A DNA stretch of 64,000 nt from Candidatus Latescibacterota bacterium (GTDB taxonomy: Bacteria > Latescibacterota > UBA2968): positions 3,659,767 through 3,723,766 of the forward strand of contig OZ242010.1 in the NCBI GenBank assembly GCA_965204745.1. Reading direction: 5' to 3'. Below the pieces are notes generated by a model. That model did no database searches and had not been told where the DNA came from. It saw only the letters and a list, made by a program, of their open reading frames with translations. Every line of letters starts with the position of its first letter. Position 1 is the first letter of the stretch. Positions 1-41,569 of this stretch are shown one piece after another. Both the position numbers and the translations under genes were made by a program.

Positions 1-666
1 GGCTTCGACCAAATCGCGATCCCCGAGCAACAAGCCCGTGGGCTGTGGCCCGCGGAGGTATTTGCCCCCGCTATACGCGACCAAATTCGCCCCGCGTTGC
101 GTGTAGGGTTCGGGAGATCGCAAGTGCTCTGACGCCGCATCGACCAGCACGGGAACGCCTCGCGGGCGCGCCATCTCGACAATCGCCTCCAGCATCTCAT
201 CCGCCTCCCAAGTGCCCAGTAGGGCGACCATCGCCACCTGCTCTCGGTTGAGCGCGTCATCCATTTCCCGCATAGAATCCACCTCTACGATAGTCGCGCC
301 CACAGACCGAATCGCGTGATCATAAGTAAATCGGCTCTCTTTGGGCATGACGACCTCGGCCTGCATCCCGCGCGTATCGGGCAGGCGAAACATCAACTCG
401 GGATCGCCCCCCGTGATGCAAGCCGCTGTTGCATGGCACAAACACGTTGCCGCGCCGGATGCGACCATGCCCCATTCCGCGGCCGTGAGTTCGGCCAACC
501 GCTCGCCCGCCCCGGCCATGAGTTCGTCCATGTTGACAAAAAAGCGCGACGCATCCCGCATCGCATCGCGCACCTGCGGCAACATCAGCGTGCCCCCGTG
601 AATGGTCCGCGTGCCGCAGCAGTTGATAAACGACCGCACGCCGAGTTGGGTATAGGGATTGTTCAC
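1..666 (-). CDS. SelA-domain PLP-dependent protein (DgaE / L-seryl-tRNA(Sec) selenium transferase-like), N-terminal 222 aa; the gene runs off the window start
   Basis: Reverse-strand translation from GTG at 666 (AGGAGA RBS 6 nt upstream): MISSVNNPYTQLGVRSFINCCGTRTIHGG...AYSGGKYLRGPQPTGLL. The YSGGKY-L-GPQ block resembles the SelA PLP-lysine region (FSGDKLLGGPQ). No stop before position 1, so it is absent from the ORF track. Confidence 0.55.
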   Translation of the reverse strand, partial: MNNPYTQLGVRSFINCCGTRTIHGGTLMLPQVRDAMRDASRFFVNMDELMAGAGERLAELTAAEWGMVASGAATCLCHATAACITGGDPELMFRLPDTRGMQAEVVMPKESRFTYDHAIRSVGATIVEVDSMREMDDALNREQVAMVALLGTWEADEMLEAIVEMARPRGVPVLVDAASEHLRSPEPYTQRGANLVAYSGGKYLRGPQPTGLLLGDRDLVEA

Positions 667-5224: not shown

Positions 5225-6007
5225 TTATCTCGCCCGAAAATCCCTATCGCCTTTGAACGGCATGGTCTCGCCCGGAATATATCGCGGGCGCGGGGCGTAG
5301 GCATTTTTGACATCGGGATCGGCTTTGCCGCGTACGAGGATGTTTTCGTGGTTTTCTCTTTGAACCCATGTGGTCGTTGGAATATAGCGCAGGGTGAGGC
5401 CAACGCGCCATTGGTCGGATGTGTTGGCATTGGAGCCGTGGATGATATTGGGATTGTGGATCGAGACGTCGCCGGCCTGGAGTTCGAGATCGACCGCGTC
5501 TGAATCGTCGATCTGGTCCGGGCGAATGCCCACGCCGAGCACGTACTTTTCCGCGTCCAAGGCCATGAGTTCGCGGCGTTTGAGCAAGTGCTTGTTCTGC
5601 GTGCCGGGCAAGACGCGCATGCAACCATTTTCAATTGTCGATGCCGTGCCCGCAACCCAGAGGGTGGTCACTTCCATCGGCTCGAGGGGCCAGTAAGAAC
5701 CGTCTTGATGCCACTGCACGGCCCGACCATCGCCCGGGGGTTTGGCGATGTAATGCGCCGCAAATAGCGCGATGTCGGGGCCGAGGAATTGTTCGGCGAT
5801 ATCGACGAGGCGTTCATCCCCTACGAGCCGGTGCATGAATGGATCGTGCGCCAGCAGATGGTGATGCAGGTGTTCTGGACGCACGCCAGGGTTTCTTTCG
5901 ATCAACCAATGGACGTGCTGAACCGTTTCTGCGGCGAGCTCTGGATCGATGGCGTTCCGTGCGATCACATAGCCGCGTTGGTCGTAGTCGCGCCGTAAAT
6001 TTTTCAT
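5225..6007 (-). CDS. PhyH family Fe(II)/2OG oxygenase, paralogue 5
   Basis: WHQDGSYW and IHNPNIIHGS motifs. Its start overlaps the upstream sulfatase stop by 4 bp (ATGA). Confidence 0.75.
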   Translation of the reverse strand: MKNLRRDYDQRGYVIARNAIDPELAAETVQHVHWLIERNPGVRPEHLHHHLLAHDPFMHRLVGDERLVDIAEQFLGPDIALFAAHYIAKPPGDGRAVQWHQDGSYWPLEPMEVTTLWVAGTASTIENGCMRVLPGTQNKHLLKRRELMALDAEKYVLGVGIRPDQIDDSDAVDLELQAGDVSIHNPNIIHGSNANTSDQWRVGLTLRYIPTTTWVQRENHENILVRGKADPDVKNAYAPRPRYIPGETMPFKGDRDFRAR

Positions 6008-7494
6008 CGCGCACGCTCCTGTCGCGGTGTCGTGCGTTGGCTTGCTCGGATGTCGCGCAGCCGGTTCGCCATCTGCTCCGCGATAGCCGGATGGGCTGAC
6101 GCCACATTTTCGATCTGCCCGATGTCGCCCGACAAGTCGTAGAGTTGTGGGGCCGGCGCATTGCCGGTTTCGATGTTGACATTGGTATTCACGGGCGGGC
6201 CTTCATGTGGCGGAATGAAAACCCAGTCTCCCCGTCGCAAAACGGTTTTTGCCTGTATGCCTTCCAAGACGATCTCGGCGCGGCCCGCATCGCTTTGCCC
6301 CAACAGCGCGTCGAGCACATTCGCGCTGTCGGGCCCCGCGTCAGAATCGAGCGAAACGCCGGCCAGCGCGGCAAAAGAGGCGAGGAAATCGACCTGACTG
6401 ACCAGCGCTTGGGATGCGCCGGGGTTGACCCTGCCGGGCCAAGACAAGATGAAGGGCACGCGAGTGCCGCCGTCATACATGCTGTATTTGCCGCCGCGCA
6501 ATGGGCCTGCGGGACGGTGATCCCCGCAGCGTTCAACGGCTTGGTCGTAGTACCCGTCGTTGAGCACCGGGCCGTTGTCGCTGGAGAAGATCACTATCGT
6601 GTTTTCTTTGAGCCCATGCCGGTCGAGCGCGTCGAGCATTTCGCCGACGCACCAGTCCATTTCGGCGATGGTATCGCCGCGCGGCCCCAGTGTCGTGCTG
6701 CCCACAAACCGGGGATGGGGCAGGCGCGGGACATGGGGTTGGTGGAAAGCGTAGTACAAGAAGAAGGGGTTGTTTTTGTTTTGTTCGACGAATGATAGGG
6801 CTTTTCCCAAAAAGACGTCGGCCATTTCTTCATCGACCCAAAGGGCTGCGTCGCCGCCTTTCATGTAGCCGATGCGGCTCACCCCATTGACGATGCTCAT
6901 GTCGTGCCCATGGTGGTATTTCATTTTGAGCAATTCGGGATTGTCCTTCCCGGTGGGCAGGCCGGGAAAGGGCTTGTTTCTGTTGTACTCGACTTCGATG
7001 GGATCGGCTGGATCCAGACCGACGACATCCCTGCCGTCGAGGTACACGCAGGGCACGCGGTCATTGGTTGCGGCCATGATGAAAGACGAGTCAAATCCAA
7101 TGTCGAGCGGGGTTCCGGGAAGGGGCGCGTTCCAATTTTGATTGCCCGCGCCAATGCCGAGGTGCCATTTGCCCACAACGCCGGTTGCGTAGCCGGCCCG
7201 TTTGAGCATCGAAGGCAAGGTGCAGGTATCGGGGTCGATGATGAGGGGCGCGTCGCCGGGCAAGATGTGGGCGCGTTCATCGCGCCAGGAATAAGACCCG
7301 GTGAGCAAGCTGTAGCGCGAGGGAGTACACGTCGCGGCAGTGGCATACCCGTTGTGGAACATCACGCCCTCGGCTACGAGGCGGTCGATGTTGGGCGTGT
7401 CGAGTGCGGTGGCGCCGTAACAGCTCACGTCGCCAAAGCCGAGGTCGTCGGCGTACATGACGATGATATTGGGGTGTTGCGTGGAATCGGCCAT
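6004..7494 (-). CDS. Sulfatase (Cys-type arylsulfatase family)
   Basis: C-T-P-S-R formylglycine signature (ATCTPSRYSLLTG). The N-terminus MADSTQHPNIIVMYADDLGFGD has no signal peptide. Start 7494 chosen at the conserved N-terminus. Confidence 0.8.
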   Translation of the reverse strand: MADSTQHPNIIVMYADDLGFGDVSCYGATALDTPNIDRLVAEGVMFHNGYATAATCTPSRYSLLTGSYSWRDERAHILPGDAPLIIDPDTCTLPSMLKRAGYATGVVGKWHLGIGAGNQNWNAPLPGTPLDIGFDSSFIMAATNDRVPCVYLDGRDVVGLDPADPIEVEYNRNKPFPGLPTGKDNPELLKMKYHHGHDMSIVNGVSRIGYMKGGDAALWVDEEMADVFLGKALSFVEQNKNNPFFLYYAFHQPHVPRLPHPRFVGSTTLGPRGDTIAEMDWCVGEMLDALDRHGLKENTIVIFSSDNGPVLNDGYYDQAVERCGDHRPAGPLRGGKYSMYDGGTRVPFILSWPGRVNPGASQALVSQVDFLASFAALAGVSLDSDAGPDSANVLDALLGQSDAGRAEIVLEGIQAKTVLRRGDWVFIPPHEGPPVNTNVNIETGNAPAPQLYDLSGDIGQIENVASAHPAIAEQMANRLRDIRASQRTTPRQERAR

Positions 7495-8894: not shown

Positions 8895-10283
8895 TCAATA
8901 CCCCTTTGCCAGGTCCGCTCGGCTTTGGGCTTCGGCGGCTTCGGGGTCGCGTCTCAATTCTTTGGTCAAGAGGGCGTGTAGGTGTGCGATGCGCTCTGCC
9001 TGCGCGGGGTCCGCGGCGAGGTTGTCGAACTCCCCCGGATCAGCTGCGAGATGGTACAGTTCGCGTTCCGGGCCGTGGTCCGCGTCGAAGCGCGTGTGGT
9101 ACACGTATTTCCATGGCCCTTGCCGGATCATCGCCATGCCCGACGCGATGTTGTGACCGTAGTATTCGCTGATGGCAATGTCGCGCCAACCGCTGGTCTC
9201 GTCGTCCAAATAATTGAGCAGGGACGCGCCATCCCAATCGTCTGAGGATTCCGCGCCGCCGATCTCGGCGATAGTTCGCGCCAGATCGACCAGTGAACAC
9301 GTGCCTGCCCGTCGTTGTCCGCCGGCCCAGCGTTTTGGGTAGGATGCGATGAGGGGCATCCGCGCTGCGTGTTCGTACAGGTTGTTTTTCCACCACAAGC
9401 CGTGGTCGCCCTTGTTCTCGCCGTGGTCCGAGCAGTAAATGACGATGGTGTCGTCCGATACGGCTGATTCGCCGAGCGCGTCGAGCAACTTGCCGATCTC
9501 GTCGTCCAACCAGTTCACAAAGCCCCAGTAGAGTTCGCGGCCCAATTTCGTCTGCGCGGCCGTGGCCTTTGTCACCCCAAATCCGGCCCGCAGATGTTTG
9601 TAATTGGTCGGCAAGGTGTCCAAGAACCCGTCGGGGATCTCGGGCATGGGCACTTTGTCTTTGTAGGGCGCGTGATACGCCTCGGGGATGGTCAAGGGAA
9701 AGTGCGGCGCGAGGTAGCCAGCCAGCAAGAAGAAGGGTTTGTCATCGGCGTTGCGATTTCGCAAAAACGCGCTGCACTCCGCCGTTACTTTGCGATCTTT
9801 TTCCAGGATGGGCGACGTATCGCCGGTTTTGAACGCGGCTACCCGGCCTTCCCAACCGCGACTCGATTCCGACAGGTCGTCGTACGCCCGCCGCCCGCCC
9901 TTGCCGGATTTTTGCCCTTGGTTCGCGCCGGGATACACATCCCGAAAACCATAGCGGTGCGCGCTGGCAAAGTGCATTTTGCCGCCGAGCCAGCATTCGT
10001 AGCCGGCCGCGTTCAAGGCGTGGGGCAACGAGGGATACTCGTCTGTGGGCAGTTGGCAATCATTCGTCCACACCCCGCACCGGCTCACGTATTGCGCTGC
10101 TGTGAAACTCGCCCGCGCAGGCGCGCAAAGCGGCGAACTCGTGTACGCCGCGTCAAAGACGATGCCCCTTTCTGCCAACCCATCCAAATGCGGCGTTCGC
10201 ACAATGGGATCGCCATAACACCCCATCACCCCCGGGTCGTGTTCATCGGACATGATCATCAAAATATTCGGTCGGTCAGCCAT
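8895..10283 (-). CDS. Sulfatase family protein
   Basis: SPLCAPARASF (C-x-P/A-x-R). N-terminus MADRPNILMIMSDEHD without a signal peptide. AAGGAGA RBS before ATG 10283; the longer track ORF is rejected. Confidence 0.8.
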   Translation of the reverse strand: MADRPNILMIMSDEHDPGVMGCYGDPIVRTPHLDGLAERGIVFDAAYTSSPLCAPARASFTAAQYVSRCGVWTNDCQLPTDEYPSLPHALNAAGYECWLGGKMHFASAHRYGFRDVYPGANQGQKSGKGGRRAYDDLSESSRGWEGRVAAFKTGDTSPILEKDRKVTAECSAFLRNRNADDKPFFLLAGYLAPHFPLTIPEAYHAPYKDKVPMPEIPDGFLDTLPTNYKHLRAGFGVTKATAAQTKLGRELYWGFVNWLDDEIGKLLDALGESAVSDDTIVIYCSDHGENKGDHGLWWKNNLYEHAARMPLIASYPKRWAGGQRRAGTCSLVDLARTIAEIGGAESSDDWDGASLLNYLDDETSGWRDIAISEYYGHNIASGMAMIRQGPWKYVYHTRFDADHGPERELYHLAADPGEFDNLAADPAQAERIAHLHALLTKELRRDPEAAEAQSRADLAKGY

Positions 10284-33701: not shown

Positions 33702-33788
33702 GAGGAGAGAAACGCGGAGAAATCGTCCGCATTGAAGCACGCCCGTAGTTTTGTTTTTCAACGCCAATCCTCATTCAAAGGACAACCC

Positions 33789-34433
33789 ATGCATCAAACC
33801 TATCCGGATCTCGACGCGTACAGGCGGGAGGTTTTCGCCCGTGAAGATGAGTTGCTCAAGGGCCTTATGCCCGCAGCGGTCGAACAGGGCATTCCGCGCA
33901 TCTCCGTCAGCCCCGAAGCCGGGCAAACCCTGTATTTGCTCGCCAAAGCCATCGGCGCGAAAAAAATCCTCGAATTTGGCGCGCTCGCCGGCTACTCGGG
34001 CATCTGGCTCGCCCGCGCCCTGCCCGCAGACGGTCGATTCATCACCTTGGAAATCGAACCCAAACACGCCGAAGTCACGCGGCGCAATTACGAAAACGCC
34101 GGGCTGTCAGCCCGAACAGAAGTGCGGTTGGGAGACGGGGCAACCCTGATGAAAGACGCGGTGCAGGACGGCCCGTTTGACCTCGTCTTCATCGACGCAG
34201 ACAAGGAAAACTATCCCACGTACCTCGACTTTGCCCTTGAAAACACGCGCCCGGGCGGCCTCATCATCGCCGACAATGCCAACGGGCACGGGCACGCGCA
34301 CCGCGCACTTCCCAAAGGCGACGGTCGCCGCGGCATCCAGGACTACAACCACCGAGTCGCCAACCATCCCAAACTCGTCTCCAACATCATCCCGGTCGGG
34401 GGCTGGCTCGCGGTCTCGCTCGTTTTGGAATGA
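33789..34433 (+). CDS. Class I SAM-dependent O-methyltransferase (family 3, caffeoyl-CoA OMT-like)
   Basis: ILEFGALAGYSGIWLA SAM motif and DLVFIDADKENY. Confidence 0.7.
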   Translation: MHQTYPDLDAYRREVFAREDELLKGLMPAAVEQGIPRISVSPEAGQTLYLLAKAIGAKKILEFGALAGYSGIWLARALPADGRFITLEIEPKHAEVTRRNYENAGLSARTEVRLGDGATLMKDAVQDGPFDLVFIDADKENYPTYLDFALENTRPGGLIIADNANGHGHAHRALPKGDGRRGIQDYNHRVANHPKLVSNIIPVGGWLAVSLVLE

Positions 34434-34480
34434 ATGGTAGGGACATGGCCCCGTGCTCACCCGAAGAAAGGAGGTCGCGC

Positions 34481-34951
34481 ATGGCGTTTGAAGCGCGGAT
34501 CGAAGGCATCTTTATCGACAGCCAATTTGAAGAGCAAGTCGTCATGCTCAAAGAAAAGGATGGGCACCGCCGCGTGCCCATCTGGATTCAAATGGGCGAA
34601 ATGCTCGCGCTCGCCCTTCAGTTGGCCGGCACTGAACCCCCGCGGCCGTTTGCACACGACTTGATCCGCACGGTCCTCCGCAACCTGCAAGCGCGTGTTC
34701 GCCATGTGGTCATCGCGGATATCGTCGATCACATCTACCACGCGCGCGTGTCTCTCACAGCGCCCGAAACCCCTTTGGACGTTGACGCCCGGCCGAGCGA
34801 CGCGATCTTGCTGGCACTCAAATTCGACGCGCCCATTTACGTCGCCAATCGGGTCGCAGACAAGAACGCCGCACGCGACTACTCGCCCGAACTCCTGCAA
34901 CAACGGCTACAACAACTGCGCCCGGAAGATTTTATCAACTTCGTCCGATGA
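34481..34951 (+). CDS. Bifunctional nuclease (BFN/DUF151) family protein
   Basis: GAAAGGAGG RBS. Typical BFN blocks (KDGHRRVPIWI, HVVIADIVDHIYHARV). Confidence 0.6.
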   Translation: MAFEARIEGIFIDSQFEEQVVMLKEKDGHRRVPIWIQMGEMLALALQLAGTEPPRPFAHDLIRTVLRNLQARVRHVVIADIVDHIYHARVSLTAPETPLDVDARPSDAILLALKFDAPIYVANRVADKNAARDYSPELLQQRLQQLRPEDFINFVR

Positions 34952-36159
34952 AAAAATTACCCATACTCCTGCTTTGCCTCTGCATTCAGGCGTCCGCAGA
35001 GCGAGCCGGTCGAGAATTGCCCGCACGCCATAAAATCGGCATCATCGCCCCGTTGGGCACGCCACACGGCGAAGCCCTACGCAACGGCATTTTGATCGCC
35101 CGCGACCACACCCCCCTCGCAGAACCGGTCGGCTTGGTATTTGAAGACTCTGAAGGCGATCCCATTCGCGCAGTGCGCGCCGCGCAACGCCTCGTTGAAG
35201 ACCGCGAGGTCATCGCGATCATCGGCGCGCTCACCAGCGCGGAAACCACGCCTATCGCGGCCCTGCTCGGCGTGCAAGAAATGCCCTTGGTGGCCCCAAC
35301 CGCGTCAGACGACGGCATTGCCTCGCTCAGCCCGTACATTTTTCAAGTCAACGCCACCCCCGGCGCGCAGGGCCGCCGCATCGCAGAACACGCTGTACGC
35401 GAACAGGGCTTGCGAACACTGGCAACCCTCGCGTCTCGAGATGGGTATGGCAGGCGCATCGCCCGCGAATTTACGACCAAAGCCGAGGATCTCGGCGCCG
35501 AGGTCCTCATCCAAGAATGGTACGAGCCGGGCACGACGGACTATCGCCGCCAATTCGAGCGCATTCGCAGCATGGGCTTGGCACTGCGTCCGCCCGCTGA
35601 CCTCGCTTCGGAAATTGACGCTTTGATCCTCGGCGATTTGTACGTCGCACCGCCCCTGGTCGAGGTCGATCCGGATACGGCCCAAGCCGACGTGGTCGAG
35701 ACCTTAGACGGCATTCTCATCGCGGGCGATGATGCGGACATCTTGCTCATCGCCCCGCAATTTCACTCCGCACTGGTCGCTTCCCAAGTGCTCGGCAGCG
35801 ATGGTTGGAACCACGCCGAAGTCGCGCGAGATGGCGGCACTTACGTGGAGGGCGCGGTTTTTGTCGGCAAATACTACGAACAAAGTCCCCTCGAATCCGT
35901 GCAATTTTTCGTCAACGCGTACCGCTCGCGCTTTGGCACGGACCAAAATATCGTCTCGGCCCTCGGGCACGACGCCATGCTGTCAATCCTGCACGGCATC
36001 AACGCAGGCGGCACCACCCGCGCCCTCCTGCGCGACCGCCTCGAAACCCTGACCGACCTCCCCGGCGCAACCGGCAAAATCTCCTTTGCCCCAGGCAATC
36101 GAGAAAATGGCTGGCTACACATGCTCACCATCCGGAAGGGGAAAATAGAACTGTATTGA
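34948..36159 (+). CDS. ABC transporter substrate-binding protein (type I periplasmic-binding fold, Liv-like)
   Basis: Signal peptide MKKLPILLLCLCIQASA. Periplasmic-binding-protein architecture. Confidence 0.6.
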   Translation: MKKLPILLLCLCIQASAERAGRELPARHKIGIIAPLGTPHGEALRNGILIARDHTPLAEPVGLVFEDSEGDPIRAVRAAQRLVEDREVIAIIGALTSAETTPIAALLGVQEMPLVAPTASDDGIASLSPYIFQVNATPGAQGRRIAEHAVREQGLRTLATLASRDGYGRRIAREFTTKAEDLGAEVLIQEWYEPGTTDYRRQFERIRSMGLALRPPADLASEIDALILGDLYVAPPLVEVDPDTAQADVVETLDGILIAGDDADILLIAPQFHSALVASQVLGSDGWNHAEVARDGGTYVEGAVFVGKYYEQSPLESVQFFVNAYRSRFGTDQNIVSALGHDAMLSILHGINAGGTTRALLRDRLETLTDLPGATGKISFAPGNRENGWLHMLTIRKGKIELY

Positions 36160-36227
36160 GGCGAAAGAGGCGAGAATAGAAGGGCGCGGCCCCGTGTGGT
36201 CATCACCCATAACATCGAGGAGAGGCA

Positions 36228-36578
36228 ATGATCAATTTTTACACATGGAGCAGATGAAGCACCTGTCGCAAGGTGAAAGCGTGGCTTTCGCGAGAAGGTG
36301 TGGAGGTGGTGGAGCGGGACTTTTTTCGGGATGGATTTACAGAGTCAGAGCTTCGAGCTTTGCTCGGGGACATGCCGCCGGGCGACGTCTTCTCGTGGCG
36401 CAGTCCGTCTGCGCGTGCGCTGAACCTCGACCGCGATGCGGTGTCCGCAGATGAACTGATTCGCCTGATGGTGGAACAACCTCGCCTGATCCGCCGGCCC
36501 TTGATCCGCGCAGGCGGGCGCCTGATGGTGGGCACGGACAAGGCGGCGATGGCAGAGGTCTTTCCCGGTTTCGCGTGA
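36228..36578 (+). CDS. ArsC/Spx/YffB-family thioredoxin-fold protein with an in-frame UGA (candidate selenocysteine) at the catalytic Cys position
   Basis: AGGAGAGG RBS then ATG 36228. MINFYTWSR-[TGA]-STCRKVKAWLSREGVEVVERDFF... aligns with Spx [20 protein letters not shown], giving a U-x-x-C motif. Same frame as the track ORF 36273..36578. A hairpin UCGC-AAGGU-GAAAGC-GUG-GCUUUC-GCGA starts 9 nt after the UGA. Confidence 0.6.
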
Positions 36579-36605
36579 TGCGCTTGCAAAAAAAGGATTT
36601 TGCCG

Positions 36606-38303
36606 ATGAATTTCACCGCCAACAACAACACGTTTCGCCAGTTGATGGGCAATGGCCTGAGTTATCGCGTGCCGCAATTTCAACGCGATTATTCCTGGGG
36701 CCCGGACGAATGGGACGATCTGTGGCAAGACATGGTCGGGCTGTTTGGCGAAGACCCGGAACCCGCGCATTACATGGGCTACTTGGTGTTGCAATCGTCC
36801 GACAACCGGGCGTTCGACATCATCGACGGACAGCAACGCATGACAACGCTGAGCTTGTTGATGCTGGCGGCAGTGGCGCATCTGAAAGACTTGGCAGTGC
36901 CGAATGACCCCAATGATCCGCAACACCGACGCGCAGAACAACTGCGAAACAATTACATCGGGTACCTCGATCCGGTGACGCTGGTGCCGCGCTCCAAGTT
37001 GACGCTGAACCGGCACAACGACCGCTTTTACCAGAATTACCTCGTGCCCCTTGAGCACCTGCCGCAAAGGGGGCTGAATGCTTCGGAACGCCTATTGCGA
37101 AGGGCGTTTCAGTGGTTTGGGGAACGCATCGTGGCATACGCGGGAAATGATGGCGAAGCGGTGGCGCGCTTTGTCGATAGCGCCGTTGATAAGTTGTTTT
37201 TTACGGTGATCACGGTGACGGACGAGTTGAATGCGTTCAAGGTCTTCGAGACCCTGAATGCGCGGGGCGTGCGCCTGTCTGCCACCGATTTGTTGAAAAA
37301 CTACCTGTTTTCCATGGTCTCGAGGGACGGCGTACACGAATCGGAAATCGAGGCATTAGAAGAACGCTGGGAGAGCATCGTCGGGCTGTTGGGCAGTGAG
37401 CGTTTTCCCGAGTTTTTGCGCGTCTATTGGAACAGCCACAATAGGTTGGTCCGCAAGGCCGATTTGTTCAAAACCATCCGCAATGCGATCCGCGACAAGT
37501 CCCAAGCCTTTGCCTTGATCCGCGCGATGGACCGGCATGCACGGGTGTACGCGGCATTGCGAAACCCAGAAGACGATTCGTGGACAGCCGCAGAGCGCGA
37601 CAGCCTATCCCAGTTGCTTATGTTCGACGTGCGCCAGCCCTTGGCCTTATTGCTGGCGGCCTTTGATCGATTCGCCGAAGACGACAGGGCCGGCCTCGGG
37701 CGTTTTCTTCGGGCTATTGCCGTGGTGTCTTTCCGCTACAACGCGATCTGCGGTTACCCGAGCAACGAGCAAGAGACGATGTACAACCGCATCGCACGCA
37801 ACATATCAACGGGCCAGATCGCCAATGCGACCGCCGCCATTGCGGAACTGAGGCCGGTTTATCCCGATGACGCAAAATTTAAGGCCGCGTTCGCCGACAA
37901 GGTGTTGCGAACCACCAGCAGTCGCGACAAAAAGGTGGCGCGCTTCATCCTGTTCCGACTCGAGGAGCAGTTGTCCGGCAATCGCTTTGATATTGAGAGC
38001 GCGAAATACAACATCGAGCATGTGTTGCCAGAAAGCCCCGGCAACGGCTGGGACCAATTCGACGATCAGCAACGCGATGCGTTCACCCATCGTTTGGGCA
38101 ACCTGACGCTTTTGGCAACAGCGGATAATCGCACCTTGGGAAATACCTCCTTTTTAGAAAAGCGTCCCATTTACCAAAAAAGCCAATTTGCCATCACGCG
38201 CAAATTGGCTGAAAATTTCGATGCCTGGACCGCAGAAAAAATTCGTTCACACCAGACCTGGATGGGCAAACAAGCCACGGCCATCTGGCGCGTCAATTTC
38301 TGA
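36606..38303 (+). CDS. GmrSD-family type IV (modification-dependent) restriction endonuclease, DUF262 + DUF1524
   Basis: N-terminal ParB/Srx-like DUF262 with IDGQQR. C-terminal His-Me finger (DUF1524: EHVLPES...W...HRLGNLTLL...NR.LGN). Confidence 0.75.
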   Translation: MNFTANNNTFRQLMGNGLSYRVPQFQRDYSWGPDEWDDLWQDMVGLFGEDPEPAHYMGYLVLQSSDNRAFDIIDGQQRMTTLSLLMLAAVAHLKDLAVPNDPNDPQHRRAEQLRNNYIGYLDPVTLVPRSKLTLNRHNDRFYQNYLVPLEHLPQRGLNASERLLRRAFQWFGERIVAYAGNDGEAVARFVDSAVDKLFFTVITVTDELNAFKVFETLNARGVRLSATDLLKNYLFSMVSRDGVHESEIEALEERWESIVGLLGSERFPEFLRVYWNSHNRLVRKADLFKTIRNAIRDKSQAFALIRAMDRHARVYAALRNPEDDSWTAAERDSLSQLLMFDVRQPLALLLAAFDRFAEDDRAGLGRFLRAIAVVSFRYNAICGYPSNEQETMYNRIARNISTGQIANATAAIAELRPVYPDDAKFKAAFADKVLRTTSSRDKKVARFILFRLEEQLSGNRFDIESAKYNIEHVLPESPGNGWDQFDDQQRDAFTHRLGNLTLLATADNRTLGNTSFLEKRPIYQKSQFAITRKLAENFDAWTAEKIRSHQTWMGKQATAIWRVNF

Positions 38304-38396
38304 TAGGGAAGTGATGTCTAGCCAAACCGAGTTGTCAACGTTTGAGCCGCTGGTATTCCCGACGCGCTTCCATCAGGGAAGGCGGCACAGATCCTC

Positions 38397-38420
38397 AAAT
38401 TACCGAGCACTCGGTAATTT
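38397..38420. promoter_or_regulatory. Perfect 10-bp-arm palindrome aattaccgag-cact-ctcggtaatt upstream of the 38450 gene
   Basis: Sits between the gmrSD stop and the next start. Operator-like symmetry, or a hairpin. Confidence 0.3.
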
Positions 38421-38449
38421 GAATCACTCACTTTTCATGGAGGTGTATC

Positions 38450-39094
38450 ATGTTTCGCATCTTGCTTTTAATTTTCAAGGAGATTTTTGGTAAGCCAGCC
38501 CCTCGCGCCCACAAGGCAAGGCAACCTGAAAAGGAACACAAAGATCGGGGTGAATCGTATGATGAGTTGCTAAAAAAAGCAACAGCACTGAAGCGGCAGG
38601 GGGATATTGATGGGGCTTTGGCCCAGATCGACAAGGCGATCTCCGTGGCCTCTGTGGGCGACCGTGGGCGACCACAGGCCCAAAAAAAGCGCATCTACTA
38701 CCTCCTTTTGTCAAAAAGACAAGAGGAGGCACTGAAAACTGCAGGACAGATTATCGCGGAAGCCCCCAACGAAGCCCAAAGCAGAGCTCTTGTTGGGACA
38801 TGTTATTTTTTTGGTTATGAGCAACGGGCGCGCGTACTGTTTTCAATGAAAAAGTTTGTCGAGTCGTTTTTGGATCATGTCCGTGCTGTCTGGCACTGGC
38901 AGGATGCAATGTCGATTCAGGGCAGAACATCGGACGAGCATACACCAGAAAAAGCGGCTGAAACCTTGCGTCAGGAGGCTATGAGATGCAAAATTTCCAT
39001 TCATGATCCTGATGTTTTCATGGGGGCGGCAATGGATGGCCTTGACGATCCAGATCCCGAATTGATGGTAGACAGATTCCGTCCACTCTTGTAA
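38450..39094 (+). CDS. Hypothetical protein, possibly TPR-like, in a low-GC islet
   Basis: 214-aa ORF in AT-rich DNA. Lys/Ala-rich helical repeats (LKKATALKRQGDIDGALAQIDKAI). Confidence 0.45.
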   Translation: MFRILLLIFKEIFGKPAPRAHKARQPEKEHKDRGESYDELLKKATALKRQGDIDGALAQIDKAISVASVGDRGRPQAQKKRIYYLLLSKRQEEALKTAGQIIAEAPNEAQSRALVGTCYFFGYEQRARVLFSMKKFVESFLDHVRAVWHWQDAMSIQGRTSDEHTPEKAAETLRQEAMRCKISIHDPDVFMGAAMDGLDDPDPELMVDRFRPLL

Positions 39095-39200
39095 AACCAA
39101 TCCCTGGTCTCTAGGAGGTGATCGAATCCGCGATAGCGCAGGAATCGACGCACGAAACAGTCCGTCTGACTATCCTCGCAGAGAAGGACGATACTCACGC

Positions 39201-40304
39201 TCATTCGTCCCACCCCCTGGCAATAGATTCGGAGAGCGACAGCCCGTCAACGGCGCGTTTTGGTTCGTCGCTGACACGCACGGGGCCGTCGTCTTGCCGG
39301 GAGAACCACTTGCCGTTGGCACCTGCCATATAATCGATTAAAACCGGGTGATGAGAGACGATGGCGATCTGTTCCAACGATTCTCCACAGCACGCAACCG
39401 CCGCCGCAACCCAAGGCTGAATTTCCGTTAGGGCAAGATAGTTCTCAGGCTCGTCAATAAACAGGGAAACCCGACGGTCTTTTGGGATAAAAATCAGACT
39501 GTACAATGCGATCAGGGTTTTCTGACCGTCGGAAAGTTGGTCGAATCCATATCTGACCAGATCGCTGGATGGGCTGCGAAATACCGCCTTGAGGGCGCGC
39601 GTGTTCTCTCCGGATTTCATCAGGTTGATCGAATCGAATCCGGGAAGGGCTTTGCCGAGTTCGCGGAACAGCGTGACGATTGAACCCATGTTTTCCTGAG
39701 AGGCGTGCCCGTACCATCCGACAAAATTCTGCATCAAAGGCGCCAAAAACTCATCTTCTGTTTTGGTTTCCAACGCGAAGAGCGGGGGGCAGGGGCTAAC
39801 GATGATGCAGTTGGCAATTTCCCTTTTGAATCGGGTCAATTTTCGGTTGTCGTGCCGCTCGTTCAAGACGCCGATTCCGGACTGCGCCCAGTCAAATGGA
39901 TACAAAGGGCCCTGCGTATAATCATCGTGATACAACTGGGCTTGGCCCTTGTGGAAAACAAACAGCGGTTTTCCGTCATGATCGAGTCTCTCGTTGCCAA
40001 TTCGCATTTGGTTGCGTGCGAGGTCGTGTTCAACTGTCAGCGCGTAACAATAGGCGTGCCCATCGATCTGCATTTCGATTTCGAATCGCTGTTCGTCGCT
40101 GTTTTCTCTCAAGGAGAGATCGCGTGCGGGAAACACCTCGTCAACTTTCAATCCGCGCACGACCAGATCCTGAATTTTCCTCAGCACACTCAAGACCGAT
40201 GTCTTACCCGTGCCATTGGCACCGAGGAAGATGTTTATCTCGCCGAGTTTGAGTTCGAAATTGGTCAAACATCGAAAATTATCGGCATAGAATCTCTGAA
40301 TCAT
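39201..40304 (-). CDS. AAA_21/AAA_15-type ABC-like ATPase (defence-associated family)
   Basis: Walker A GANGTGKTS, ABC-signature-like LSDGQKT, Walker B LFIDEPE, H-loop VSHHP. Confidence 0.7.
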   Translation of the reverse strand: MIQRFYADNFRCLTNFELKLGEINIFLGANGTGKTSVLSVLRKIQDLVVRGLKVDEVFPARDLSLRENSDEQRFEIEMQIDGHAYCYALTVEHDLARNQMRIGNERLDHDGKPLFVFHKGQAQLYHDDYTQGPLYPFDWAQSGIGVLNERHDNRKLTRFKREIANCIIVSPCPPLFALETKTEDEFLAPLMQNFVGWYGHASQENMGSIVTLFRELGKALPGFDSINLMKSGENTRALKAVFRSPSSDLVRYGFDQLSDGQKTLIALYSLIFIPKDRRVSLFIDEPENYLALTEIQPWVAAAVACCGESLEQIAIVSHHPVLIDYMAGANGKWFSRQDDGPVRVSDEPKRAVDGLSLSESIARGWDE

Positions 40305-40355
40305 TGGACATCCTCACACTCGTCAGATCGCCGGTCGTCTTCCTCTTGCGGACGC

Positions 40356-41414
40356 TTACCCCACCTCAATTTCTCGGCCCGTGCGGCCGGATTCAAATAC
40401 GGCATTGATGATTTCCACGGCGTGGCGCGCGCTTTCGAGGCCGATCATGGGATCGCGGTCTTCGTTGATGGCCGCGACCAAGTCCTCGATGATCAGGGTG
40501 TGCCCGTCTGAACTGACTGCCATCGGGTCTGCGGAGATGTTCTTCTGTTTGTCTTCCCGGCTGCCGTACAGGCCGAGCATCTCCGCTTCTTCTGCGGCCT
40601 CGTTCTCGCCCTGAATTTTCCACGCGATCAACTTGGACGCATCTTTCATAATGGACCCATTCGCGCCGTAAATGGTCACCAGTTGGGGCAGGCCGGGATA
40701 GCAACAGGTCGTCGTATAAACCGTGCCAATCGCGCCATTCTTGAATTTGAACAGGGCCACAGTCTGATCCTCGGCTTCGATGTCGTGCCCAAAAACGCCG
40801 AACATGCCCATCACAGACGCGACACCGCCGGCGAGCCATTGGATCAGATCGACGGTATGCACCCCCTGATTCATCAACGAGCCGCCGCCATCGAGATCCC
40901 ACGTTCCCTTCCACAAGCCGTGCGCGCCCTGATAATAACTCTGTGCGCGATACCACGGCAAATGCCCATGAACGCCGATCAACTTGCCCAACTTGCCGCT
41001 GTCAATCGCCGCTTTGATGCGCTTGTTCAAGGGATCCAGCCGCGCTTGAAAAATACACCCGACCTTGACGCCCGCATCTTTCACCGCGCCGATGAGTTGA
41101 TCCACGCGCTCGGGCGTGATATCCGCGGGCTTCTCCACGACCATGTGCTTGCCCGCATCTGCGGCCTGAATCCCCAGCGCGGCGTGCTTGCCGGACTCCA
41201 CGCAAATGTTGACGACTTGCACGTCATCGTCCCGAAGCATCTCTTCGTAACTCGTGTACGCCTTGCACCCATGTTGCTCGGCCACCGGCCCCAAACGATC
41301 TTCATCCACATCGCACACCGCCACCAACTTCGCGCCCGCGGCCTCTGTGACAGACCGACAATGGTGCTTGCCCATCCCCAGTCCAACAATGCCAAATCCC
41401 AGTTCTTTTGCCAT
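40356..41414 (-). CDS. Gfo/Idh/MocA family oxidoreductase
   Basis: GFGIVGLGMGKHH Rossmann fold. VVEKP. GGGAGG RBS before ATG 41414. Confidence 0.8.
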   Translation of the reverse strand: MAKELGFGIVGLGMGKHHCRSVTEAAGAKLVAVCDVDEDRLGPVAEQHGCKAYTSYEEMLRDDDVQVVNICVESGKHAALGIQAADAGKHMVVEKPADITPERVDQLIGAVKDAGVKVGCIFQARLDPLNKRIKAAIDSGKLGKLIGVHGHLPWYRAQSYYQGAHGLWKGTWDLDGGGSLMNQGVHTVDLIQWLAGGVASVMGMFGVFGHDIEAEDQTVALFKFKNGAIGTVYTTTCCYPGLPQLVTIYGANGSIMKDASKLIAWKIQGENEAAEEAEMLGLYGSREDKQKNISADPMAVSSDGHTLIIEDLVAAINEDRDPMIGLESARHAVEIINAVFESGRTGREIEVG

Positions 41415-41569
41415 GACATCCTCCCAAAAAAATTGCAGACGATTTCTCAAACGCGGCTCAATCTAATGCGTGGCGTTTTTGCGAACAAGCAAAAAACCAT
41501 CCCGTCTGCGGAATACCTTGACATTTGGGAAAAAGGGGCTATACATGAAGAGGCCGCCCTGCCCCGCCC

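What the first reader, a model, noticed from the sequence alone, without database searches (positions are those of the whole stretch)
36228..36578. Candidate selenoprotein: ArsC/Spx-family gene with UGA at the catalytic-Cys position (U-x-x-C) and a SECIS-like hairpin
From ATG 36228 (AGGAGAGG RBS) the frame reads MINFYTWSR-TGA-STCRKVKAWLSREGVEVVERDFF and continues unbroken to 36578. The N-terminal block aligns with the Spx/ArsC/YffB consensus ([17 protein letters not shown]), with the TGA exactly where the first Cys of the CxxC redox motif belongs. Nine nucleotides after the UGA there is a bulged hairpin, UCGC-AAGGU-GAAAGC-GUG-GCUUUC-GCGA (perfect 6-bp upper stem, GUG apical loop), at the position where bacterial SECIS elements lie. 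Six-frame calling truncates the gene to a GTG start at 36273, dropping the conserved N-terminus. A SelA-domain gene lies at the window start (1..666). If real, this is a redox selenoprotein placed directly upstream of a GmrSD restriction enzyme in a low-GC islet.
Basis: partly seen in the sequence, partly recalled or inferred. Interest (0 to 1): 0.75.

Follow-up and report, generated by a model that had tools for sequence, protein, structure and literature searches.

The report
Spx/ArsC-like selenoprotein gene, known family
This is a real gene for a small redox protein that reads an internal UGA "stop" codon as selenocysteine with the help of an RNA hairpin just downstream; the protein family was already described as a selenoprotein in ocean metagenomes in 2008, so the value here is correcting an annotation that databases get wrong throughout, not new biology.

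Summary
ATG 36228, in-frame TGA 36255-36257 and an open frame to 36578 encode a 116-residue ArsC/Spx-fold protein. The TGA sits exactly on Spx Cys10, giving a U-x-x-C motif.

Evidence for a selenoprotein:
- In 44 related genomes (Latescibacterota, Dehalococcoidia/SAR202) the position is TGA in 40 and TGC (Cys) in 4, never TAA or TAG. The genes' terminal stops use all three stop codons equally.
- The N-terminus upstream of the TGA (FYTW-R) is conserved with synonymous variation, so it is translated.
- An 8-bp hairpin with a G-U-N triloop lies 23 nt after the UGA in all TGA forms. It shows compensatory changes and frozen synonymous sites, and it is absent from the Cys forms.
- Two independent assemblies 98-99% identical to the window carry the same TGA.

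- The "SelA" gene at the window start is a DgaE-family enzyme, not Sec machinery.
- The bulged lower stem is not conserved.
- The GmrSD gene lies in a ~3.8-kb insertion unrelated to the selenoprotein.

Sec machinery could not be checked in the source genome; one relative has tRNA-Sec 3.4 kb from its copy.

The family matches the published GOS "Arsenate reductase 2 (UxxC)" selenoproteins at 41-43% identity. Verdict: real, a new member of a known kind, modest interest.

The parts
36219..36225 (+). Shine-Dalgarno-like GGAGAGG ahead of the start codon
   Evidence: Read directly from the sequence. The ATG at 36228 is the first start codon after the upstream in-frame stop.
36228..36578 (+). Full-length coding sequence of the ArsC/Spx-fold selenoprotein: 116 codons including Sec10, with the terminal TGA at 36576-36578
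   Evidence: Translation. Pfam ArsC PF03960 E = 6.7e-19 over residues 5-110. End-to-end alignment with B. subtilis Spx, E = 5e-15. tblastn matches from residue 1-4 in 44 genomes.
36255..36257 (+). In-frame UGA, read as selenocysteine (residue 10, first position of the U-x-x-C motif)
   Evidence: TGA in 40 of 44 related loci and TGC (Cys) in the other 4, never TAA or TAG. The family's terminal stops are TGA 15, TAG 15 and TAA 14. It aligns with Spx Cys10. The same codon is present in independent assemblies L045 and L046.
36264..36266 (+). Cys13 codon (TGT), the resolving Cys of the U-x-x-C motif
   Evidence: Invariant Cys in all 45 sequences. It aligns with Spx Cys13.
36273..36291 (+). SECIS upper hairpin: 8-bp stem (36273-36280 paired with 36284-36291) and GUG triloop (36281-36283). 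The loop starts 23 nt after the UGA.
   Evidence: It is predicted in every TGA-containing locus and is absent from the four Cys-form loci. 96.5% of cells are paired and 5 of 8 pairs show changes on both sides, against 32-50% paired in slid controls. Synonymous sites are frozen in codons 16-21. The loop is G-U-N in all 41 sequences.
36265..36299 (+). Possible SECIS lower helix (36265-36268 paired with 36296-36299) enclosing the upper hairpin through a 4x4 internal loop. It is weak in the window, with 3 pairs, two of them G-U.
   Evidence: 75.7% of cells are paired across relatives, with one pair changed on both sides. It appears in most MFE folds. It is less certain than the upper helix.

Best explanation
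Window 36228-36578 is a selenoprotein gene. It encodes a 116-residue thioredoxin-fold protein of the ArsC/Spx superfamily. Its N-terminal redox motif is Sec10-Ser-Thr-Cys13 in place of the usual Cys-x-x-Cys.

During translation the ribosome meets UGA at codon 10. The mRNA just downstream lies inside the coding sequence for K-V-K-A-W-L-S and folds into an 8-bp hairpin with a G-U-N triloop. By analogy with characterised bacterial SECIS elements, this hairpin recruits SelB-GTP-Sec-tRNA(Sec), so selenocysteine is inserted instead of terminating.

The mature protein most likely acts as a selenol/thiol oxidoreductase or redox sensor. The Sec10 selenolate would attack an oxidised substrate, Cys13 would resolve the adduct as an intramolecular selenenylsulfide, and a thioredoxin or glutaredoxin system would re-reduce it.

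Shown here: the conserved UGA, the Sec/Cys pairing, the translated N-terminus, the conserved and covarying hairpin, and the fold family. Inferred: SelB binding, actual Sec incorporation, and the chemistry and cellular substrate.
For: (1) Family and position. Pfam ArsC scores 68.4 bits against a cutoff of 24, starting at residue 5. The alignment with Spx crystal-structure sequences is full length, E = 5e-15, with U10 on Spx Cys10 and C13 on Spx Cys13.

(2) Sec/Cys pairing. There are 44 loci from named MAGs; 40 have TGA and 4 have TGC at the homologous codon. Terminal stops in the same genes are TGA 15, TAG 15 and TAA 14, so the internal site is constrained to TGA specifically.

(3) The N-terminus is translated. 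F, Y, T, W and R upstream of the TGA are invariant in 37 distinct sequences while their codons vary synonymously (TTT/TTC, TAC/TAT, ACA/ACC/ACT, AGA/CGT/CGC). Several loci have an in-frame stop just before the Met.

(4) The hairpin.
- It is in the same register in all TGA forms and absent from the Cys forms.
- 96.5% of cells are paired, and 5 of 8 pairs have changes on both sides. Divergent members (L037, L043, and L042/L044 shifted by one codon) have different stem sequences at the same site.
- Val GTG, Ala GCG and Leu CTT are fixed 37/37. Variation at Lys AAA/AAG and Ser TCA/TCG keeps the pairs intact. Other conserved Leu, Arg and Thr codons in the gene show 1.4-2.3 bits of codon entropy.
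- The apical loop starts with G, the published bacterial SECIS hallmark.

(5) Not an error. Two independent assemblies at 98-99% nt identity have the same TGA. All 120 best database homologues are truncated at the same point.

(6) Sec decoding in a relative. L042 has tRNA-Sec (ARAGORN, and Rfam RF01852 at 74.4 bits) 3.4 kb upstream of its copy. Thioredoxin reductase is adjacent to that tRNA, and a LysR regulator sits immediately upstream of the copy.

(7) Published precedent. GOS 'Arsenate reductase 2 (UxxC)' reads are 41-43% identical with U at the same position.
Against: - No Sec machinery is visible in the 64-kb window. There is no tRNA gene and no Rfam hit, and the SelA-like gene is DgaE-family. 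The rest of the source genome could not be searched.
- No other selenoprotein candidate was found in the window.
- Most of the hairpin's conservation comes from closely related sequences. The double changes rest on 1-3 divergent sequences per pair.
- The hairpin has no bulged U and a 15-nt spacer to the upper stem. From my own memory of the E. coli fdhF element, that differs from fdhF.
- There is no experimental evidence of selenium incorporation.
- The biochemical role is not constrained by context. Neighbours differ between phyla and no ars, trx or grx partner is conserved.
Confidence: 0.9

Rival explanations
1. The TGA is a genuine stop. The functional product is the N-terminally truncated protein started at GTG 36273 or later, as gene callers annotate it, and the nine upstream codons are untranslated leader.
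For: Every one of the 120 best database entries is annotated this way. A GTG or ATG codon follows the TGA in most loci. Sec machinery has not been shown for this genome.
Against: - The truncated product would lack strand beta-1 and the whole redox motif, which align with Spx residues 1-15.
- The upstream codons are conserved at the protein level with synonymous variation.
- The stop is always TGA although terminal stops use all three codons.
- Four homologues read straight through with Cys.
- The annotated starts differ among close relatives (MKAWLS, MEVVERD, MERDFF), which suggests the callers simply took the next available start codon.
Confidence: 0.04
2. The gene is a decaying pseudogene, or the TGA is a sequencing or assembly error.
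For: A single in-frame stop early in a short gene is how a fresh pseudogene or a base-call error would look in one sequence.
Against: - The same TGA is present in 40 genomes from two phyla and in two independent assemblies 98-99% identical to the window.
- There are no frameshifts or further stops, and protein conservation is strong on both sides of the TGA.
Confidence: 0.01
3. The UGA is read through without Sec, either by near-cognate Trp or Cys insertion or by a lineage-wide reassignment of UGA. On this reading the conserved hairpin merely slows the ribosome or reflects amino-acid conservation.
For: Sec incorporation was not measured, and the window shows no Sec machinery.
Against: - UGA still serves as the terminator of this same gene (36576-36578) and of 15 of 44 family genes, so there is no global reassignment.
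- The recoded site is the nucleophilic Cys of a CxxC motif and pairs with Cys in homologues. This is the classic Sec signature used in published surveys.
- The hairpin's synonymous-site constraint and its absence from the Cys forms argue for a recoding element.
- tRNA-Sec is present near the gene in L042.
Confidence: 0.04

Closest known systems
'Arsenate reductase 2 (UxxC)' selenoprotein family of the GOS marine metagenome survey (Zhang & Gladyshev 2008, PMC2398784); also 'Arsenate reductase-like protein, COG1393, UxxC' in the 2022 review PMC9312934
   Same: - Both are ArsC/Spx-type thioredoxin-fold proteins with a UxxC motif at the N-terminus.
- Published reads JCVI_READ_1318105 and JCVI_READ_1095390070075 are 43% and 41% identical to the window protein over 92-101 residues (E = 2e-31 and 6e-28), with U at the same position.
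- They share the ERDFF, RSPS and EPRLIRRPL motifs.
- The paper assigns the family to cd03032, the Spx-like subgroup. This fits the best PDB and NCBIfam hits found here.
   Different: - The published group is heterogeneous. Other reads filed under the same heading are only 23% identical.
- The clade found here has an FSWRSPSAR motif and comes from Latescibacterota and Dehalococcoidia/SAR202. It was not singled out, named or assigned to organisms in that work.
- No paper in the searched library links Latescibacteria with selenoproteins.
Spx, the Bacillus/Firmicutes RNA-polymerase-binding redox-switch regulator (PDB 1Z3E, 3GFK, 7F75)
   Same: - It is the best solved-structure relative (E = 5e-15 over residues 1-108).
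- The redox motif is at the same residues 10 and 13.
- The RRP(L/I)I motif and the Arg equivalent to Spx R60 are shared.
   Different: - The window protein has Sec instead of Cys10.
- It is 116 aa against 131-132 aa, so the C-terminal tail is missing.
- NCBIfam Spx models score 54-66 bits against cutoffs of 123-159.
- The position aligned to Spx Gly52 varies within the family (G, A, D, T, S, F). That Gly52 contacts the alpha-CTD is from my own knowledge.
- The host phyla are not Firmicutes. No evidence of RNA polymerase binding was obtained.
NCBIfam NF041106 'ArsC family (seleno)protein' (ArsC_rel_Se_1)
   Same: It is an ArsC-superfamily protein family that NCBI curates as containing selenoproteins.
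   Different: The window protein scores 32.5 bits against a cutoff of 85, so it belongs to a different subfamily. This probably explains why annotation pipelines do not rescue the UGA in this clade.
Glutaredoxin-coupled arsenate reductase ArsC (R773 type, TIGR00014), and the 'Arsenate reductase 1 (UxxS)' selenoproteins
   Same: The fold is the same and the nucleophile sits at the same N-terminal position. Arg residues are conserved at the positions of the ArsC Arg triad; that alignment is from my own knowledge of R773 ArsC and was not computed.
   Different: - TIGR00014 scores 39.1 bits against a cutoff of 106.
- The motif is UxxC, not CxxS or UxxS.
- No ars operon genes are nearby in either phylum.
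Bacterial SECIS elements (E. coli fdhF type; bSECISearch consensus)
   Same: - It is a hairpin inside the coding region a short distance 3' of the UGA.
- A conserved G is at the start of the apical loop (legends quoted).
- The loop begins 23 nt after the UGA. This lies within the 16-37 nt range I recall from the bSECISearch model; that range is from memory and was not verified here.
   Different: It has a triloop (G-U-N), no bulged U in the upper stem, and a 15-nt spacer to the upper stem. The review notes that bacterial SECIS elements are diverse and that some do not fit the consensus model.

Membership tests
Bacterial selenoprotein gene (UGA-Sec with SECIS) | In-frame UGA conserved among orthologues at a functionally important position | tested here: met
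   The codon is TGA in 40 of 44 loci and never TAA or TAG. It lies at the first Cys position of the CxxC motif. Terminal stops use all three stop codons.
Bacterial selenoprotein gene (UGA-Sec with SECIS) | Homologues with Cys at the position of the UGA (Sec/Cys pair) | tested here: met
   L038-L041 have TGC at the aligned codon, giving C-G/S-T-C motifs, at 43-51% identity.
Bacterial selenoprotein gene (UGA-Sec with SECIS) | Protein-level conservation on both sides of the UGA in one frame | tested here: met
   FYTW-R upstream is invariant while its codons vary synonymously, and the downstream sequence is conserved throughout.
Bacterial selenoprotein gene (UGA-Sec with SECIS) | [quoted passage not shown] | tested here: met
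   The element is an 8-bp stem with a G-U-N triloop that starts 23 nt after the UGA. 96.5% of cells are paired with compensatory changes, synonymous sites are frozen, and the hairpin is absent from the Cys forms.
Bacterial selenoprotein gene (UGA-Sec with SECIS) | selA, selB, selC (tRNA-Sec) and selD present in the same genome | not testable with these tools
   - The window has no tRNA gene and no Rfam hit, and its SelA-like gene is DgaE-family.
- Indirect support: relative L042 has tRNA-Sec 3.4 kb from its copy.
- An AIR-synthase-like ORF in L035 is not a clear SelD.
Bacterial selenoprotein gene (UGA-Sec with SECIS) | Selenium shown experimentally in the protein | not testable with these tools
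   This requires 75Se labelling or mass spectrometry.
ArsC/Spx superfamily (Pfam PF03960) | Score above Pfam's gathering threshold over the whole domain | tested here: met
   68.4 bits against a cutoff of 24, covering residues 5-110 and profile positions 1-78 of 79 (with U replaced by C).
GOS 'Arsenate reductase 2 (UxxC)' selenoprotein family (PMC2398784) | UxxC motif at the N-terminal active site, with significant similarity to published member sequences | tested here: met
   43% identity with E = 2e-31 and 41% with E = 6e-28 to two published reads, with U aligned. A third read under the same heading is only 23% identical, so the published group is broad.
GOS 'Arsenate reductase 2 (UxxC)' selenoprotein family (PMC2398784) | Assignment to CDD cd03032 (Spx-like subgroup) | not tested
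   CDD was not available. As a proxy, the best NCBIfam hit is TIGR01617 Spx/MgsR at 74.9 bits against a cutoff of 75.05, and the best PDB hits are Spx.
NCBIfam NF041106 ArsC family (seleno)protein | Score above the curated cutoff | tested here: not met
   32.5 bits against a cutoff of 85.
Spx (RNA-polymerase-binding regulator) | Score above the NCBIfam Spx equivalog or subfamily cutoffs | tested here: not met
   NF002459 scores 66.3 against 123, NF009210 58.7 against 159, and NF009885 54 against 152. TIGR01617 falls 0.15 bits short of its cutoff.
Spx (RNA-polymerase-binding regulator) | Redox CxxC motif at residues 10-13 | tested here: met
   U10 and C13 align with Spx C10 and C13.
Spx (RNA-polymerase-binding regulator) | Conserved alpha-CTD contact residue (Spx Gly52) and the C-terminal tail | tested here: inconclusive
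   The window has Gly at the aligned position, but the family varies there (G, A, D, T, S, F). The protein ends about 15 residues earlier than Spx. The role of Gly52 is from my own knowledge.
Glutaredoxin-coupled arsenate reductase ArsC (TIGR00014) | Score above the cutoff, and ars operon context | tested here: not met
   39.1 bits against a cutoff of 106. The neighbours are altronate dehydratase and Gfo/Idh/MocA in Latescibacterota, and DUF3179 and acyl-CoA carboxylase in Dehalococcoidia.
SelA (L-seryl-tRNA(Sec) selenium transferase), for the gene at the window start | Score above the TIGR00474 cutoff | tested here: not met
   TIGR00474 scores 18 bits against a cutoff of 267.9 (E = 1e-3). The best hit is the DgaE family TIGR01437 at E = 1e-25. 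The fragment is cut by the window edge.

The most novel reading that the evidence does not exclude
This clade might be a selenocysteine-containing, Spx-type redox-switch regulator, that is, a selenoprotein that binds RNA polymerase and controls transcription, operating in Latescibacterota and SAR202 Dehalococcoidia. To my knowledge every characterised bacterial selenoprotein is an enzyme or redox carrier, so a Sec-based transcriptional switch would be a new functional class. The evidence does not exclude it: Spx is the closest characterised relative and the UxxC motif sits on the Spx switch cysteines. Nothing positively supports it, however. The Spx models are below cutoff, the C-terminal tail is absent, the Gly52 position varies, and no regulon context was found.
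Probability: 0.08. Interest if true: 0.6.

Novelty: new member of a known kind. Interest (0 to 1): 0.3.

Why it matters
ArsC/Spx-like UxxC selenoproteins have been on published lists since the mid-2000s, so the biology is not new. Three things have practical value.

1. Every one of the 120 closest database proteins examined is annotated as a truncated 89-103-residue protein without its active site (368 proteins matched in total). This is a systematic error. A dedicated family model flagged as a selenoprotein would fix it.
2. The clade ties a metagenome-only selenoprotein family to named lineages, Latescibacterota and SAR202/Dehalococcoidia. This implies Sec decoding in Latescibacterota, for which I found no report in the searched literature.
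3. The family offers a clean natural experiment. Sec forms with the hairpin and Cys forms without it could be used to study what a bacterial SECIS needs inside a coding sequence.

Tried and rejected
1. Sec machinery in the window. There are no tRNA genes and no Rfam hits. The SelA-like gene is DgaE-family. So there is no support from the window itself.
2. SelD in the fetched loci. A tblastn with E. coli SelD recalled from memory, used only as a probe, gave one hit, in L035. NCBIfam shows that hit is an ambiguous AIR-synthase-like protein below the cutoffs for ThiL, HypE and SelD alike, so I rejected it as evidence.
3. Other selenoprotein genes in the window. I ran a motif screen on ORFs that read through a TGA, and a TGA-plus-hairpin screen. 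Both gave only off-frame noise apart from this gene.
4. A curated RNA family for the hairpin. There is none in Rfam. The only sub-threshold hit was a spurious snoRNA match elsewhere in the gene.
5. A functional link to GmrSD. I rejected this. Relatives L003 and L008 have the gene followed directly by a terminator and the Gfo/Idh/MocA gene, while L001 carries a decayed GmrSD remnant.
6. A conserved functional partner across phyla. None was found.
7. I rejected it on comparative grounds.
8. Literature linking Latescibacteria or SAR202 to selenocysteine. The one paper holding both terms does not connect them.
9. Structure prediction. I did not run it, because the full-length alignment with Spx crystal-structure sequences already fixes the fold and the residue equivalences.

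Full report
**Observation.** An ATG at 36228 follows a GGAGAGG motif. Codon 10 is TGA (36255-36257). The frame then stays open to a TGA stop at 36576-36578, and the translation is MINFYTWSR*STCRKVKAWLSREGVEVVERDFF.... The ATG is the first possible start after the upstream in-frame stop. Mechanical ORF calling finds only the truncated 36273-36578 ORF, which starts at GTG.

**Family and position of the TGA.** With the stop replaced by Cys, the protein matches Pfam ArsC (PF03960) at 68.4 bits against a cutoff of 24, and the match begins at residue 5, upstream of the TGA. The best NCBIfam model is the Spx/MgsR subfamily TIGR01617, at 74.9 bits against a cutoff of 75.05. The model NCBI curates as "ArsC family (seleno)protein" (NF041106) scores only 32.5 bits against 85, and glutaredoxin-type ArsC scores 39 against 106. 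Against solved structures the best relatives are Spx proteins (E = 5e-15). The alignment is end to end and places the TGA codon on Spx Cys10 and Cys13 on Spx Cys13.

**Comparative test of the recoding hypothesis.** A search of 5.8 billion proteins found 368 relatives. All 120 listed are 89-103 residues long and start after the TGA position, at whichever start codon comes next (MKAWLS, MEVVERD, MERDFF). This is what a family-wide annotation artefact looks like.

I then fetched the DNA of 44 homologous loci from named MAGs of Latescibacterota and Dehalococcoidia/SAR202.
- In all of them the tblastn match runs through to residues 1-4.
- At the homologous codon, 40 loci have TGA and 4 (L038-L041, 43-51% identical) have TGC. 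None has TAA or TAG.
- The terminal stops of the same 44 genes are TGA 15, TAG 15 and TAA 14. The internal site is therefore constrained to TGA specifically. The sequences are related, so this is not 40 independent events.
- UGA is still an ordinary terminator in these organisms, including for this very gene.
- Upstream of the TGA, residues F, Y, T, W and R are invariant in 37 distinct sequences while their codons vary synonymously. Several loci have an in-frame stop just before the initiator Met. The short N-terminal segment is therefore translated in the same frame as the rest.

**The hairpin.** The window RNA from 36255 to 36310 folds at -20 kcal/mol (z = -2.58).
- All 41 TGA-containing sequences fold into a hairpin in the same register: an 8-bp stem with a G-U-N triloop. 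The four Cys forms have nothing comparable at that position.
- On the alignment the 8-bp helix is window 36273-36280 paired with 36284-36291. It is paired in 96.5% of cells, and 5 of 8 pairs show changes on both sides. Slid controls pair in 32-50%.
- The double changes come from the divergent members (L037, L043). L042 and L044 carry a hairpin of entirely different sequence shifted by one codon.
- Because the element lies in coding sequence, I tested synonymous sites. Val GTG, Ala GCG and Leu CTT are fixed 37/37, and the only variation (Lys AAA/AAG, Ser TCA/TCG) keeps the pairs intact. Conserved Leu, Arg and Thr codons elsewhere in the gene carry 1.4-2.3 bits of codon entropy, and CTT is a minor Leu codon there. 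This constraint acts on the RNA, not the protein.
- The loop starts 23 nt after the UGA and begins with G. [quoted passage not shown]
The proposed bulged lower stem (UCGC/GCGA) pairs in only 45% of cells. A different lower helix (36265-36268 / 36296-36299) pairs in 76% and is only tentative.
- Rfam has no family for this element.

**Not an error.** Two independent assemblies (ENA ERZ23495605 and Logan SRR18249259) are 98-99% identical to the window over 3.4-4.7 kb. Both carry the same TGA, N-terminus and hairpin.

**Sec machinery.** This is the one refutation criterion I could not test for the source genome.
- The window has no tRNA gene and no Rfam hit.
It belongs to the DgaE/SelA-related PLP family (E = 1e-25, against 1e-3 for true SelA).
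- Screens for further selenoprotein genes in the window found nothing credible.
- Among the relatives, L042 has a tRNA-Sec (ARAGORN; Rfam RF01852 at 74.4 bits) 3.4 kb upstream of its copy. A thioredoxin reductase gene lies next to that tRNA. A LysR regulator that resembles the selenium-metabolism-associated type, but scores below its cutoff, sits immediately upstream of the gene.
- A SelD-like hit in L035 turned out to be an ambiguous AIR-synthase-family protein.

**Context.** In Latescibacterota relatives the gene is followed by a terminator-like hairpin and then a convergent Gfo/Idh/MocA gene. That gene lies at 40356-41450 in the window, at about 90% amino-acid identity. The segment 36579-40355 is therefore an insertion specific to this sublineage. 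It contains:
- GmrSD at 36606-38303, which matches PADLOC HEC-06/Orf5;
- an unannotated ORF at 38450-39094;
- an AAA_15/AAA_21 ATPase on the minus strand at 39201-40304.

L001 retains a decayed GmrSD remnant. The insertion's GC content is 0.533 against 0.569 for the window. Neighbours differ between the two phyla and no partner gene is conserved. The adjacency to GmrSD says nothing about the selenoprotein's function.

**Mechanism.**
- Shown: a conserved UGA at a redox-active Cys position, Sec/Cys pairing, a translated N-terminus, a conserved and covarying hairpin at SECIS distance, and an ArsC/Spx fold.
- Inferred from established knowledge of bacterial Sec insertion: SelB-GTP-Sec-tRNA(Sec) binds the hairpin loop and delivers Sec to the UGA.
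- Inferred from the chemistry of UxxC thioredoxin-fold proteins: the Sec10 selenolate is the nucleophile, and Cys13 resolves the adduct as a selenenylsulfide that a thioredoxin or glutaredoxin system then reduces.

The data do not settle whether the protein is a reductase, an arsenate reductase or an Spx-like sensor. Spx-specific models are below cutoff, the C-terminal tail is missing, and the position aligned with Spx Gly52 varies. ArsC models and ars operon context are also not met.

**Comparison with what is known.** ArsC-like selenoproteins were reported in 2006 (PMC1794560). The 2008 GOS survey lists "Arsenate reductase 2, cd03032, UxxC" with 42 Sec sequences and 238 Cys homologues, and counts it among previously described families. 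Its supplementary dataset contains reads that are 43% and 41% identical to the window protein, with U at the same position and the same ERDFF, RSPS and EPRLIRRPL motifs. Other reads under the same heading are only 23% identical. A 2022 review also lists an "Arsenate reductase-like protein, COG1393, UxxC". The window gene is therefore a new member of a known selenoprotein kind. What my searches did not find in earlier work is the assignment of this clade to Latescibacterota and SAR202, and the fact that it is uniformly truncated in current databases.

**Verdict.** My confidence that it is a selenoprotein gene is about 0.9. Novelty is low, and interest is about 0.3.

Noticed in passing
window 36579-40355: This is a ~3.8-kb insertion relative to Latescibacterota relatives L003 and L008. 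It carries GmrSD (36606-38303; PADLOC HEC-06/Orf5, E = 6e-227), an ORF with no family hit (38450-39094), and a minus-strand AAA_15/AAA_21 ATPase (39201-40304) with weak matches to PDC-M25A, HEC-01A and AbiLi. It looks like a small defence islet. GC is 0.533 against 0.569 for the window.
   Followed up: partly
L001 10379-10795: The closest complete relative (OY282377.1) has only a decayed GmrSD remnant at the same site: about 230 bp of the 5' end joined to about 190 bp of the 3' end. The islet was therefore present in the common ancestor of this sublineage and is being lost.
   Followed up: partly
window 1-~590, minus strand: The partial gene cut by the window edge is a DgaE/SelA-related PLP-dependent enzyme (TIGR01437, E = 1e-25), not SelA. 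Pfam's SelA domain name is misleading for this family.
   Followed up: yes
L042 5487-10342: In this Chloroflexota MAG the genes lie in the order thioredoxin reductase (5487-6446), tRNA-Sec (6537-6629), a LysR regulator (8994-9980) and the divergent ArsC-like Sec gene. The LysR regulator's best match is the 'selenium metabolism-associated' model, at 212 bits against a cutoff of 250. This may be a small selenium/redox gene cluster.
   Followed up: partly
L005, L011, L012 (Dehalococcoidia) versus window and L001-L004 (Latescibacterota): The proteins are 77-79% identical across two unrelated phyla and share the Trp19 variant and the GUG loop. Most other Dehalococcoidia copies have Ser19 and a GUC loop. 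This suggests horizontal transfer of the gene together with its embedded SECIS.
   Followed up: no
window 36228 upstream boundary (about 36231-36237): Synteny with all fetched relatives breaks exactly at the 5' end of the gene. The window's upstream genes have no counterpart in the related loci: a periplasmic-binding protein (34948-36159), a bifunctional-nuclease-domain protein (34430-34951) and a methyltransferase (33732-34433). The gene therefore sits at a rearrangement breakpoint.
   Followed up: partly
L045 1326-1742 versus window ~33705: An otherwise 98-99% identical contig from another sample carries an extra ~420 bp encoding a DUF433 protein, which the window lacks. This is a strain-level indel.
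   Followed up: no
L003 10340-10400 and L008 10340-10400: In relatives without the islet, a strong bidirectional terminator-like hairpin (AAAAAAAGCCAGACA..TGTCTGGCTTTTT) lies between the selenoprotein gene and the convergent Gfo/Idh/MocA gene. In the window this element is absent, and GmrSD starts 27 nt after the stop.
   Followed up: no
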